From the IMG/VR virus record IMGVR_UViG_3300035497_000528: a stretch of DNA of 56,236 nt, one strand, 5' to 3'. The stretch's first letter is position 1; each line of letters begins with the position of its first letter. The notes under the pieces were generated by a model, which made no database searches, was not told where the DNA came from, and worked only from the letters and a program-made list of their open reading frames with translations. Shown piece by piece: positions 28,582 through 28,689 of this stretch. A program made the position numbers and the translations under genes. The DNA is from a virus.

Positions 28582-28689
28582 TGTTGTATGGTCGAGAGGG
28601 AAGACGCCTGGGTAGTAGCTATGATTCTTTATTGAAAGATAAAGAGGAGCAAACCCCGGGAGGCATGGGTTCGAGCCCCATTTCAACAT
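28582..28689 (+). ncRNA. tRNA-like gene with a roughly 42-nt insertion in the anticodon region (intron-like or degenerate)
   Basis: acceptor tgttgta/ttcaaca, D gtc-gagagggaa-gac, stem cctggg/cccggg enclosing tagtagctatgattctttattgaaagataaagaggagcaaac, T atggg-ttcgagc-cccat. Confidence 0.4.

What the first reader, a model, noticed from the sequence alone, without database searches (positions are those of the whole stretch)
28582..28689. tRNA-like gene interrupted by a roughly 42-nt insertion in the anticodon region
It has a canonical acceptor stem (tgttgta/ttcaaca), a Ser/Leu-style 3-bp D stem and a perfect T-arm. Where the anticodon hairpin should be, a 6-bp stem (cctggg/cccggg) encloses 42 nt that contain an internal hairpin ctttattgaaagataaag. 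Bacterial and phage tRNA introns are group I elements of 200 nt or more, so a 40-nt insert is not that type. It could be a bulge-helix-bulge-type or ligase-dependent mini-intron, or a tRNA mimic or decoy. The phage's own RNA ligase and end-healing enzymes make an endonuclease-and-ligase splicing route conceivable.
Basis: seen in the sequence. Interest (0 to 1): 0.6.

Follow-up and report, generated by a model that had tools for sequence, protein, structure and literature searches.

The report
tRNA-shaped RNA without an anticodon
This phage gene has a complete tRNA body but a capped 42-base hairpin arm where the anticodon loop should be, and it most likely makes a non-decoding tRNA mimic related to the phage's Y RNAs rather than a tRNA split by a mini-intron.

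Summary
Window 28582-28689 matches the Rfam tRNA model (37.3 bits, E 1e-6). It has acceptor, D and T arms. A 6-bp stem (28607-12 / 28655-60) encloses 42 nt that fold into an irregular hairpin with a GAAA cap.

The mini-intron reading is not supported:
- No excision gives a normal anticodon loop; the only candidate is an odd Thr-AGU loop.
- There is no bulge-helix-bulge and no group I core.
- The closest relative (L001, about 93-95% identical DNA) lacks the whole gene, not just the insert.

Context points elsewhere. The window holds a second tRNA-like gene with a 42-nt insert (38061-38184), two circularly permuted tRNA-like RNAs (one hits Rfam YrlA, E 1e-8) and about ten small units of the form helix, 1-4 nt, ACAGCAA, complementary strand. 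It also holds a Ro-like RNA-binding protein gene and an RNA-repair cluster. The same helix-ACAGCAA signature flanks Ro-like genes in six unrelated cultured phages. In about 30 related phages it sits inside tRNA anticodon stems as an integral arm.

The gene studied here (X1) has the same geometry but a degenerate motif (GGAGCAA), and two covariance models did not confirm membership. Best reading, confidence about 0.5: a non-permuted YrlA-like tRNA mimic, possibly degenerate.

The parts
28582..28689 (+). X1: the tRNA-shaped gene of the finding (acceptor, D and T arms plus a long arm in place of the anticodon stem-loop)
   Evidence: Rfam tRNA 37.3 bits, E 1.2e-6. ARAGORN intron mode calls it. Sequence read.
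28607..28660 (+). Extended arm of X1: 6-bp stem CCUGGG/CCCGGG, then internal loops, a GCU/AGC 3-bp helix, and a 7-9 bp hairpin capped by GAAA
   Evidence: MFE -16.7 kcal/mol, z -2.56. Read directly from the sequence.
28625..28646 (+). Hairpin UUCUUUAUU-GAAA-GAUAAAGAG inside the arm
   Evidence: It has the same geometry as the covarying hairpins of the module in relatives.
28646..28653 (+). GGAGCAAA: a degenerate counterpart of the (A/T)C(A/T)GCAA motif that follows the helix in related RNAs
   Evidence: GCAA is kept, but the near-invariant C is a G. Not confirmed by covariance models.
38061..38184 (+). X2: a second tRNA-like gene with a 42-nt insert (38092-38133). The insert is the hairpin UUGAGGGUU-GAAAA-AAUUCUUGA, then GA, then CUGCAAC. 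An intact Tyr-type loop CUGUAAA and a long variable arm follow.
   Evidence: Rfam tRNA 35.7 bits. Sequence. Conserved in L001 with only 2 changes, both in loops.
26651..26767 (+). Circularly permuted tRNA-like RNA (YrlA-like). Order: AAGACGA, AU, ACAGCAA, AUGC-UUGGGGA, T arm, closed acceptor hairpin, D arm, UCGUCUU.
   Evidence: Rfam YrlA RF02553 42.7 bits, E 1.6e-8 local and 8.8e-7 in the 14-kb scan, below the gathering score of 69. Fold.
34219..34333 (+). Second permuted tRNA-like unit. Order: UAAGACAG, GU, UCAGCAA, T arm, acceptor 3' strand, GCCA, linker, acceptor 5' strand, D arm, CUGUCUUG.
37987..38048 (+). Stand-alone helix-ACAGCAA unit (AAGAC, AUGG, ACAGCAA ... GUCUUG) directly upstream of X2. 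It is one of about ten such units between 24.5 and 38 kb; others start near 24515, 27493, 28183, 32314, 34092, 34412, 34585, 35105 and 36851.
   Evidence: Closing helices covary (AGAUGCA/UGCAUCU, AGACAC/GUGUCU, ACGC/GCGU).
39939..41453 (+). Ro-like (TROVE/vWA-type) RNA-binding protein gene, the presumed protein partner
   Evidence: Pfam DUF2828 + DUF7788 and PHROG 850 'RNA-binding protein'. Homologues in 711 phage records are annotated 'Ro-like RNA binding protein'. MIDAS-like DxSxS is invariant. No direct PDB sequence hit.
44305..55936 (+). RNA-repair gene cluster. Members: Thg1-like 44305-45150, HD 45636-46100, RlaP-like 46470-47258, phosphoesterases 47258-48034 and 53999-54724, RNase T-like 48522-49325, cyclic-phosphate receiver domain 49322-49759, RNA ligase-like 49838-51196, NADAR 52922-53362, AAA_33 kinase-like 55409-55936.
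   Evidence: Pfam scans. Several hits fall below Pfam's curated cut-offs.

Best explanation
X1 is not a split tRNA gene. It encodes a stable, non-decoding tRNA-shaped RNA.

Anatomy: it has a normal acceptor / T-arm / D-arm core. The anticodon stem continues into a roughly 20-bp irregular hairpin capped by GAAA, with no anticodon loop.

Proposed mechanism (inferred):
- It is transcribed with the surrounding co-oriented tRNA array.
- RNase P cuts its 5' end. Its 3' end is freed when RNase P cuts the tRNA-Ser that starts 7 nt downstream, followed by trimming and CCA addition.
- The L-shaped core then acts as a handle for tRNA-recognising enzymes, while the long arm binds the phage's Ro-like protein.

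This would make it a Y RNA of the YrlA (tRNA-mimic) type with two differences. Its ends lie at the acceptor stem instead of in the protein-binding stem (it is not circularly permuted), and the protein-binding stem is closed by a tetraloop.

The resulting particle would work with the neighbouring RNA-repair or RNA-turnover enzymes on tRNAs during infection.

X1 may be a degenerate or dispensable copy of this design.
For: Shown:
- X1 matches the tRNA model and has no anticodon loop.
- The tertiary-contact positions are all present by direct reading: U8, A14, G15:C48, G18G19, G53, T54-T55-C56, A58, C61.
- The arm is more stable than shuffled sequence.
- X1 lies in a 27-tRNA co-oriented array, with 6 nt between its discriminator base and tRNA-Ser.
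- The same window holds X2 with a 42-nt insert of the same design.
- It also holds a permuted tRNA-like RNA that hits Rfam YrlA (E 1.6e-8), a second permuted unit, and about ten helix-ACAGCAA units.
- A Ro-like gene and an RNA-repair cluster lie downstream.

Cross-lineage support:
- The unit of a 7-8 bp strand, then 1-2 nt, then ACAGCAA, then the complementary strand lies beside the Ro-like gene in Bacillus PBC2, Listeria A511, Mycobacterium Wyatt2, Salmonella Mushroom, an Enterococcus phage and a KVP40-like Vibrio phage.
- Its helices covary freely. No comparable exact-ACAGCAA unit with a 7-8 bp closing helix appeared on the opposite strands.
- Some of these units enclose permuted tRNA-like domains, as in known YrlA.
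- A P100-like Listeria phage makes three very abundant RNAs upstream of its Rsr-like gene. The authors proposed they are Y RNAs (PMC12282133).

Module inside tRNA-like genes of related phages:
- About 30 related viral contigs carry it.
- Its hairpin covaries: 98% of cells paired, 6 of 7 pairs with double changes, 0 of 500 shuffles as good.
- Its architecture rules out simple splicing.

X1 shares TA after the stem, a 10-nt linker, a 7-9 bp G...A-capped hairpin, a short spacer, GCAA, and the 42-nt total length.

The relaxed descriptor hits 84 times on the sense strand and 28 times on the antisense strand in 1.12 Mb. That gives roughly 1e-3 chance for a 44-nt insert. The descriptor was defined after seeing X1.
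Against: - X1's motif is GGAGCAA. The C that is almost invariant elsewhere is a G.
- X1 lacks the ..GGGA element that precedes the 3' stem strand in YrlA and in most relatives.
- A covariance model of nine clear modules did not retrieve X1 or X2 in the window.
- A full-length model scored X1 (17 bits) below every ordinary tRNA, so membership rests on resemblance only.
- Rfam gives only tRNA for X1, not YrlA.
- X1 has no homologue in 59 related loci, in viral, metagenome or genome pattern scans, or in L001. There is therefore no conservation or covariation evidence for X1 itself.
- The Ro-like gene is 11 kb away, not adjacent.
- Binding of any of these RNAs to the Ro-like protein is untested.
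- The Ro-like assignment has no direct sequence hit to solved Ro60 structures.
- No expression data exist.
Confidence: 0.5

Rival explanations
1. Degenerating cassette. X1 is a relic, either of a module-bearing tRNA-like RNA or of a tRNA hit by an insertion, with no remaining function. It would be tolerated because tRNA arrays gain and lose units freely.
For: - Absent from the closest relative, with clean boundaries.
- An orphan everywhere searched.
- Degenerate motif, and no GGGA element.
- T.T mismatch in the acceptor stem.
- Lowest score of all tRNA-like genes with model R2.
- No promoter or terminator of its own was called.
Against: - All four stems are otherwise intact: 6/7, 3+1, 6/6 and 5/5 pairs.
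- Every universal tertiary-contact nucleotide is kept.
- The 42-nt insert is not random-looking. It forms a 9-bp GNRA-capped hairpin with z -2.56.
Confidence: 0.25
2. Protein-dependent mini-intron. The 37-42 nt are cut out by an endonuclease and the halves are joined by the phage RNA ligase after end healing, giving a functional tRNA. ARAGORN's version is Thr-AGU with the intron at 37/38.
For: - ARAGORN intron mode calls tRNA-Thr(AGT) with intron i(38,37).
- RNA ligase-like, kinase-like, phosphoesterase and cyclic-phosphate-domain genes are in the window.
- This phage group does carry true tRNA introns: group I in tRNA-Leu(UAA) at L006 17124-17328, E 8e-10.
- It also carries about 450-nt inserts that encode an endonuclease.
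- In X2-type genes, removing the insert would give a perfect tRNA-Tyr, because the 5' stem strand is duplicated.
Against: For X1:
- No excision gives a standard loop apart from G32-U33-AGU-A37-C38 (and direct reading).
- By established knowledge, bacterial systems use A34 only in tRNA-Arg(ACG), and ThrRS identity needs G1-C72 and C2-G71. X1 has U1-A72 and G2-C71.
- tRNA-Thr(UGU) is already encoded 315 nt downstream.
- There is no bulge-helix-bulge, and no splicing endonuclease domain among the 30 window proteins scanned.

In the family:
- The insert is integral in many homologous designs.
- The same RNA exists in circularly permuted form.
- No insert-free allele exists in L001.
Confidence: 0.08
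3. A tRNA mimic unrelated to the Ro-like protein. Examples: a decoy or sponge for a host tRNA-targeting nuclease or modification enzyme, or a processing or stability element for the adjacent tRNA-Ser transcript.
For: - Intact tRNA core.
- Position 6 nt upstream of tRNA-Ser.
- Phage tRNA arrays are discussed as counter-defence against anticodon nucleases (PMC10264068, listed; not read here).
- X1's motif and flanks deviate from the ACAGCAA family.
Against: - With no anticodon loop, X1 cannot bait nucleases that recognise anticodon loops.
- The shared geometry with the module family in the same genome would be a coincidence.
- L001 keeps tRNA-Ser without X1, although its tRNA-Ser carries an insert.
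Confidence: 0.15

Closest known systems
YrlA-type bacterial and phage Y RNAs (Rfam RF02553; Chen et al. 2014, PMC4201824; Wang et al. 2018, bioRxiv 10.1101/312249)
   Same: - A tRNA-like domain with D arm, T arm and acceptor helix, plus the tertiary-contact nucleotides.
- No anticodon loop.
- The 'anticodon stem' continues into a long stem that carries the protein-binding module.
- Encoded in a genome that has a Ro-like protein and RNA-repair genes.
- A bona fide YrlA-like RNA is present in the same tRNA array.
   Different: - YrlA is in effect circularly permuted: its ends lie in the Ro-binding stem and its acceptor stem is closed by a loop. X1 has free acceptor ends, and its long stem is closed by GAAA.
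- X1 lacks AUGC-UUGGGGA and has GGAGCAA instead of (A/U)CAGCAA or cggCga.
- X1 scores as tRNA, not YrlA, in Rfam.
- It lies 11 kb from the Ro-like gene.
Module-bearing tRNA-like genes of related uncultured phages (for example L031 9047-9168, L014 6067-6190, L028 5339-5453, L006 9437-9555, and window X2)
   Same: - Same place of insertion (the anticodon stem) and a similar size (40-50 nt).
- Same order of parts: stem, UA, linker, 6-9 bp hairpin with a G...A loop, 1-3 nt, ..GCAA, linker, 3' stem strand.
- X1 belongs to the sub-type in which a complete stem encloses everything.
   Different: - Relatives have a C at motif position 2 and usually ..GGGA or a 7-nt anticodon-like loop after the motif. 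X1 has neither.
- There is no sequence homology.
- The covariance models did not link them.
Archaeal/eukaryal tRNA introns (bulge-helix-bulge, spliced by EndA and a ligase), including split and permuted tRNA genes
   Same: A short insert in the anticodon arm. Permuted tRNA-like genes also occur in the same genome. A ligase and end-healing enzymes are available.
   Different: There is no bulge-helix-bulge, no EndA-like gene was seen, no sensible mature anticodon results, and homologous inserts are structurally integral.
Bacterial/phage group I introns in tRNA anticodon loops
   Same: Location in the anticodon region. True examples exist in relatives (L006 tRNA-Leu UAA).
   Different: 42 nt is far too short for the catalytic core, and there is no Rfam Intron_gpI signal.

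Membership tests
Decoding tRNA (RF00005) | Cloverleaf with acceptor, D and T arms and the conserved tertiary nucleotides | tested here: met
   37.3 bits against a gathering score of 29. U8, A14, G15:C48, G18G19, G53, T54-T55-C56, A58 and C61 were read.
Decoding tRNA (RF00005) | 5-bp anticodon stem closing a 7-nt loop with U33, an anticodon and a purine at 37 | tested here: not met
   44 nt replace the loop. After any excision, only GUAGUAC is loop-like, and the ARAGORN outcomes are non-unique.
Bulge-helix-bulge tRNA intron | Two 3-nt bulges separated by a 4-bp helix at the exon-intron junctions | tested here: not met
   The predicted arm has a 5/4-nt internal loop next to a 3-bp helix at the ARAGORN junctions.
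Bulge-helix-bulge tRNA intron | A splicing endonuclease (EndA family) available | tested here: inconclusive
   No such Pfam domain in the 30 window proteins scanned. The rest of the genome and the host are unknown.
Group I intron | Catalytic core P3-P9 (about 200 nt or more) and a match to Intron_gpI | tested here: not met
   The insert is 42 nt, and there is no Rfam hit at E<=10.
Any intron | An intron-less allele of the same gene in relatives, or a spliced transcript | tested here: not met
   L001 lacks the entire gene, and no other homologue was found. Transcripts cannot be tested with these tools.
YrlA / Y RNA (RF02553) | A tRNA-like effector domain lacking an anticodon loop | tested here: met
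YrlA / Y RNA (RF02553) | 5' and 3' ends pair to form the Ro-binding stem, and the acceptor stem is closed (permuted topology) | tested here: not met
   X1's ends are at the acceptor stem, and the long stem is capped by GAAA.
YrlA / Y RNA (RF02553) | Match to the Rfam covariance model | tested here: not met
   Only tRNA is reported for 28480-28720 at E<=10. The neighbouring unit 26666-26785 does match.
YrlA / Y RNA (RF02553) | A Ro60/TROVE-type protein encoded nearby | tested here: met
   A Ro-like gene at 39939-41453, 11 kb downstream on the same strand. Its Ro-likeness rests on annotation and literature; no PDB sequence hit was found.
YrlA / Y RNA (RF02553) | Physical binding to the Ro protein | not testable with these tools
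   Needs EMSA or RIP.
Phage helix-NN-ACAGCAA module (defined here) | A 6-9 bp covarying helix whose strand is followed after 1-4 nt by (A/T/C)C(A/T/C)GCA(A/G) | tested here: inconclusive
   X1 has the helix, the G...A cap, the spacer and GCAA, but G in place of the conserved C. Model R1 does not retrieve it, and model R2 is uninformative.

The most novel reading that the evidence does not exclude
X1, X2 and about 30 relatives are a new class of non-permuted Y RNAs. They are complete tRNA bodies with free, CCA-type acceptor ends. Some keep authentic Tyr, Asn, Leu, Phe or Ile anticodon loops. A Ro-binding helix-ACAGCAA arm is grafted into the anticodon stem.

Such chimeras could be processed, CCA-tailed and perhaps charged like tRNAs while carrying the phage Ro-like protein. 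They would tether it to tRNA-handling or tRNA-cleaving enzymes, or tag phage tRNA-like molecules for repair.

A still bolder variant is not excluded for the X2 type: the arm guides its own removal and the phage ligase reseals the tRNA.
Probability: 0.3. Interest if true: 0.75.

Novelty: new variant of a known kind. Interest (0 to 1): 0.55.

Why it matters
Known bacterial and phage Y RNAs mimic tRNA only in a permuted, closed-acceptor form, and their partners and functions are largely unknown.

RNAs that keep the normal tRNA topology while carrying the presumed Ro-binding arm would show how Y RNAs can arise from tRNAs, in either direction. They would also give a simple sequence signature, helix-NN-ACAGCAA, for finding phage Y RNAs next to Ro-like genes in many cultured phages, including Listeria A511/P100, Felix O1-like, Bacillus PBC2, mycobacteriophages and KVP40-like phages.

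They would make testable the idea that phage Ro particles act on tRNA repair or turnover during infection. They also warn annotators that 'tRNA with intron' or 'tRNA pseudogene' calls in phage tRNA arrays may be non-coding tRNA mimics.

Tried and rejected
1. Exact and degenerate pattern scans for X1 found nothing in viral contigs, metagenome contigs or genome contigs.
2. Protein-anchored searches for closer relatives found nothing. These used the neighbouring NlpC/P60 gene in metagenome contigs and an exact-protein look-up. Only L001 is close.
3. GenBank phages have no DNA relative of the region.
4. blastn of the X1 halves and insert against 59 related loci gave only generic T-arm matches.
5. 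Covariance model R1, built from nine module hairpins, gave no hit on X1 or X2. The model is small and sequence-biased, so its power is low.
6. Covariance model R2, built from 13 full-length non-permuted members, is dominated by the tRNA body. Ordinary tRNAs outscore X1 and X2, so it is not discriminating.
7. In-silico excision followed by ARAGORN is too permissive to identify an anticodon.
8. The Ro-like protein and a 7-sequence profile of it gave no hit against PDB sequences.
9. I considered that the adjacent major-vault-protein homologue and the Ro-like protein form a vault-like particle that uses these RNAs. The MVP homologues of huge phages LR756500/1 have no Ro-like gene, tRNA or ACAGCAA unit within 12 kb, so the adjacency is not general. 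I left this as a side note.
10. An alternative pairing of the permuted unit, modelled on the Rfam YrlA outer stem (AUCUU/AAGAU), is not supported in the other units. The AAGAC/GUCUU-type closing helix is.
11. I considered that the ~450-nt ORF-bearing inserts are long forms of the 42-nt module. Their flanks have a different arrangement.
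Full report
**1. The observation**

The sequence at 28582-28689 is as described.

- Acceptor: TGTTGTA / TTCAACA, 6 of 7 pairs with T.T at 6:67.
- U8, a D stem of three pairs plus G13.A22, and a D loop AGAGGGA.
- G26, then CCTGGG (28607-12) pairing with CCCGGG (28655-60).
- Variable loop AGGC, a perfect T arm ATGGG-TTCGAGC-CCCAT, and discriminator T.
- The 6-bp stem encloses exactly 42 nt. These contain the hairpin CTTTATT-GAAA-GATAAAG, extendable to 9 bp.

Rfam's tRNA model matches end to end at 37.3 bits (gathering score 29, E 1.2e-6), with 44 nt in place of the 7-nt loop. 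Default ARAGORN and the whole-window Rfam scans miss it. ARAGORN in intron mode calls tRNA-Thr(AGT) with a 37-nt intron at position 38. The 54-nt arm folds better than shuffles (-16.7 kcal/mol, z -2.56).

**2. Is it an intron?**

Four tests argue against it.

- Mature anticodon loop. The only way to assemble a loop with U33 and a purine at 37 is GUAGUA|C (Thr-AGU, with G32). ARAGORN accepts more than 20 different outcomes depending on the cut, so its call carries no information. From established knowledge, A34 tRNAs in bacteria are limited to Arg-ACG, and ThrRS needs G1-C72 and C2-G71, which X1 lacks. tRNA-Thr(UGU) is encoded 315 nt downstream.
- Splice-site structure. The junctions lie at a 5/4-nt internal loop beside a 3-bp helix, not in a bulge-helix-bulge.
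- Size. 42 nt cannot hold a group I core, and Rfam shows none.
- Relatives. The only close relative, viral contig L001, is 93% identical in the ATPase protein used to find it, and most aligned DNA blocks are 89-96% identical. It is collinear on both sides but has 5 nt where the window has 116 nt, so it lacks the whole gene rather than the insert.

No other homologue of X1 was found in 59 related loci, nor in viral, metagenome or genome pattern scans.

**3. Context inside the window**

The window is an AT-rich phage-like contig with 27 co-oriented tRNA genes between 24.8 and 38.3 kb. None reads Trp.

A second tRNA-like gene, X2 (38061-38184), also has a 42-nt insert. Rfam tRNA scores it at 35.7 bits. 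Its insert is the hairpin UUGAGGGUU-GAAAA-AAUUCUUGA, then GA, then CUGCAAC. An intact CUGUAAA (Tyr) loop and a class II variable arm follow. X2 is conserved in L001 with two changes, both in loops, while the flanks are about 10% diverged.

The spacers of the array contain about ten units of the form 5'-strand, 1-4 nt, (A/U)C(A/U)GCAA, 40-110 nt, complementary strand. Each ends 4-13 nt before the next tRNA. The closing helices covary: AAGAC/GUCUU, AGAUGCA/UGCAUCU, AGACAC/GUGUCU, ACGC/GCGU.

Two units enclose circularly permuted tRNA-like domains, ordered T arm, closed acceptor hairpin, D arm. One of them, 26666-26785, matches Rfam YrlA over the full model (42.7 bits, E 1.6e-8 locally and 8.8e-7 in a 14-kb scan). 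This is below the gathering score of 69. It shares AUGC-UUGGGGA and the ..stem-UA feature with the consensus.

Downstream lie:
- a Ro-like RNA-binding protein gene (39939-41453; Pfam DUF2828 + DUF7788, PHROG 850);
- a true major-vault-protein homologue (41589-44033; PDB MVP E 1e-18);
- an RNA-repair cluster with Thg1-like, HD, RlaP-like, phosphoesterase, RNase T-like, cyclic-phosphate receiver, RNA ligase-like, NADAR and kinase-like genes.

**4. Relatives**

Using the array's ATPase as an anchor, I fetched 59 related viral loci. ARAGORN intron mode, followed by inspection, shows tRNA-like genes with 40-60-nt inserts on the 5' side of the anticodon region in about 30 of them.

The inserts share one design: stem strand, UA, linker, 6-9 bp hairpin with a G...A loop, 2-4 nt, C(A/U/C)GCA(A/G), linker. 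On a gap-free alignment of nine of them, the hairpin is 98% paired, six of seven pairs show double changes, and 0 of 500 shuffles do as well.

Three sub-architectures occur:

- (a) A full 5-bp stem encloses everything and ends in ..GGGA. Removing the insert would not give a normal loop. Examples: L014, L017, L023, L028, L049, L033b, L006b.
- (b) Only the outer three pairs come from the 5' part (GCG-UA...). The inner two pairs and a 7-nt anticodon-like loop (Asn, Ile or Pro-like) come after the module, so the module is structurally integral. Examples: L005, L009-Asn, L033a, L031, L034, L043. The permuted YrlA-like RNA of the window has the same junction.
- (c) The 5' strand of the anticodon stem is duplicated at the end of the insert. 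Examples: X2, L009-Tyr, L007-Leu, L029-Phe, L006a.

The existence of (b) and of permuted versions means the module is part of a stable RNA, not an intron. X1 is of type (a).

**5. Link to the Ro-like protein**

The window protein has homologues in 711 GenBank phage records. Many are annotated 'Ro-like RNA binding protein' or 'RNA-binding protein'. I fetched six unrelated examples. In every one, units of a 7-8 bp strand, then 1-2 nt, then ACAGCAA, then the complementary strand lie beside the gene or in the adjacent tRNA array.

- Bacillus PBC2: seven units, three of them in the 566-nt gap just upstream of the gene.
- Listeria A511: three units directly upstream.
- Mycobacterium Wyatt2: two units, plus a permuted tRNA-like RNA closed by GGACUC / GAGUCC with GCAGCAA, directly downstream.
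- Salmonella Mushroom: four units, one with a permuted tRNA-like domain.
- An Enterococcus phage: two units, one with a permuted tRNA-like domain.
- A KVP40-like Vibrio phage: two units, one of which overlaps the start codon of the Ro-like gene.

The helices differ completely in sequence between lineages. No comparable exact-ACAGCAA unit with a 7-8 bp closing helix appeared on the opposite strands.

What the literature says:
- Known YrlA RNAs are described as tRNA mimics that lack an anticodon loop and a free CCA end and resemble circularly permuted tRNAs. Ro60 contacts mainly the 5' strand of the terminal stem (PMC4201824; bioRxiv 10.1101/312249).
- In a P100-like Listeria phage, three very abundant RNAs upstream of the Rsr-like gene were proposed to be Y RNAs (PMC12282133).
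- A Thermus phage Ro60 binds two upstream Y-like RNAs (PMC12135203).

I therefore read helix-NN-ACAGCAA as the signature of phage Y RNAs and probably their Ro-binding module. I did not find the motif described in the papers I read. This is inference from adjacency and covariation, not a binding result.

**6. Where X1 fits**

X1 has the tRNA-like core and lacks an anticodon loop, like YrlA. It also has, in the right order and orientation:
- stem strand, UA, a 10-nt linker;
- a 7-9 bp hairpin with GAAA, then a 1-nt spacer;
- GGAGCAA, then the 3' stem strand leading into the T arm.

The insert is 42 nt, as in X2 and several relatives.

X1 deviates in three ways. The near-invariant C of the motif is a G. 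The ..GGGA / AUGC-UUGGGGA elements are missing. RNAfold pairs its AGC with GCU of the linker.

A relaxed descriptor that X1 satisfies has a background of about 2.5e-5 per nt (28 antisense against 84 sense hits in 1.12 Mb). That is roughly 1e-3 for the insert, but the descriptor was relaxed with X1 in view.

Two covariance models failed to confirm membership. R1, built on module hairpins, finds neither X1 nor X2. R2, built on full-length RNAs, is dominated by the tRNA body and ranks X1 last at 17 bits.

Membership in the module family is therefore plausible (my estimate is about 0.6) but not demonstrated.

**7. Most likely mechanism**

Shown: the fold, the array context, and the co-occurrence with YrlA-like RNAs, helix-ACAGCAA units, a Ro-like gene and RNA-repair genes.

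Inferred:
- X1 is transcribed within the array.
- RNase P matures its 5' end. Cleavage of the abutting tRNA-Ser, followed by trimming and CCA addition, matures its 3' end.
- It persists as an RNA of about 110 nt. Its L-shaped core engages tRNA-recognising factors while the long arm engages the Ro-like protein.
- It thus acts as a non-permuted YrlA-type Y RNA in tRNA surveillance or repair during infection.

**8. Rivals**

- A degenerating, dispensable cassette (0.25).
- A tRNA mimic that works independently of the Ro-like protein (0.15).
- A protein-dependent mini-intron (0.08).

**9. Novelty and verdict**

The object is real, and it is not an ordinary tRNA or a known type of intron. Its closest known kind is the YrlA class of Y RNAs, from which it differs in topology: free acceptor ends and a capped protein-binding stem.

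I rate it a new variant of a known kind, with moderate interest (0.55). The specific gene is an orphan with a degenerate motif. The family it points to is broader and more interesting than the single locus. That family comprises tRNAs and tRNA mimics carrying a helix-ACAGCAA arm, together with the same signature next to Ro-like genes in many cultured phages.

Noticed in passing
window 38061-38184: A second tRNA-like gene with a 42-nt insert (38092-38133), placed on the 5' side of an intact Tyr-type loop CUGUAAA. The 5' strand of the anticodon stem is duplicated (CCGGA ... CUGGA). A normal tRNA-Tyr(GTA) also exists at 25420-25504. X2 is conserved in L001, with changes only in loops.
   Followed up: yes
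window 26651-26767 and 34219-34333: Two circularly permuted tRNA-like RNAs (T arm, closed acceptor, D arm). Each is closed by an AAGAC../..GUCUU helix with ACAGCAA or UCAGCAA after the 5' strand. The first matches Rfam YrlA (42.7 bits, below the gathering score).
   Followed up: yes
window 24.5-38 kb, + strand. Units start near 24515, 27493, 28183, 32314, 34092, 34412, 34585, 35105, 36851 and 37987. Also loci L060-L065.: Recurrent small units of the form helix strand, 1-4 nt, (A/U)C(A/U)GCAA, then the complementary strand. They sit in tRNA-array spacers, often just after a TGnTATAAT promoter-like box. The same signature sits beside Ro-like protein genes in Bacillus PBC2, Listeria A511, Mycobacterium Wyatt2, Salmonella Mushroom, an Enterococcus phage and a KVP40-like Vibrio phage.
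   Followed up: partly
L065 5966-6006 (Vibrio phage PC-Liy1): The 3' strand of a short helix-ACAGCAA unit (GACAUU, UU, ACAGCAA ... AAUGUC) contains the start codon of the Ro-like gene. This suggests possible autoregulation of the protein by its own RNA-binding site.
   Followed up: no
window 31224-31312: tRNA-Ile(TAT) with an unusual long variable arm whose loop reads CCAGCAA (AGCC-CCAGCAA-GGUU). This is the same motif grafted at a different position of a tRNA. It is conserved in L001 8528-8616.
   Followed up: no
window 41589-44033: A genuine major vault protein homologue: PDB MVP chains at E about 1e-18 over residues 314-770, plus Pfam MVP shoulder and Vault_3. It starts 136 nt after the Ro-like/TROVE-type gene on the same strand. 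Among GenBank phages, homologues occur only in three uncultured huge-phage records (LR756500, LR756501, LR756503). I checked two of these (LR756500, LR756501); there the gene has no Ro-like gene, tRNA or ACAGCAA unit within 12 kb.
   Followed up: partly
window 44305-55936: A dense RNA-repair or RNA-processing cluster: Thg1-like, HD, RlaP-like nucleotidyltransferase, two calcineurin-like phosphoesterases, RNase T-like exonuclease, cyclic-phosphate-processing receiver domain, RNA ligase-like, YqeY, NADAR and AAA_33 kinase-like genes.
   Followed up: partly
L001 5362-5921; also L006 15197-15740, L007 6669-7199, L017 9374-9904, L043 12267-12824, L049 1792-2332: Inserts of about 450-480 nt in tRNA anticodon loops. 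Each is almost entirely a 136-146 aa PD-(D/E)xK-type (I-Ssp6803I-like) ORF, with only about 30 nt and 10-25 nt of flanks that pair across the ORF. In several, the 5' exon ends in U and the insert ends in G. There is no room for a group I core and no Rfam group I hit for L006 15197-15740. In L001 the insert interrupts the tRNA-Ser that abuts X1 in the window.
   Followed up: partly
L002 13230-13378, L033 7890-8060, L037 12714-12871, L052 16162-16313, L025 15618-15774, L019 3153-3834: tRNA genes whose anticodon loops hold 60-100-nt inserts that themselves look like miniature tRNAs, with an acceptor-like helix and D- and T-like arms. Untested idea: RNase P and RNase Z could excise them, leaving 3'-OH and 5'-phosphate ends that an ATP-dependent RNA ligase could join directly.
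   Followed up: no
L006 17124-17328: A bona fide group I intron (Rfam 47.4 bits, E 8e-10) in tRNA-Leu(UAA). Longer inserts of 789 nt occur at the same kind of site in L014 and L035. L054 carries a 789-nt ORF-bearing insert in another tRNA-like gene (called Leu-CAA by ARAGORN).
   Followed up: partly
L007 13421-14012, L043 13947-14571; L014 3167-3510, L017 4713-5053, L019 5966-6310, L043 15254-15555: ROOL RNAs and phage-encoded tmRNAs lie in the tRNA arrays of relatives. The ROOL genes directly abut module-bearing tRNA-like genes.
   Followed up: no
window 24785-38264: The 27 tRNAs cover all amino acids except Trp. The 3' flanks inspected show no encoded CCA in this window, whereas many relatives do encode it.
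   Followed up: no
window 28505-28527: A short AAGAC...GUCUU hairpin with no ACAGCAA motif lies about 55 nt upstream of X1. It is conserved in L001.
   Followed up: no
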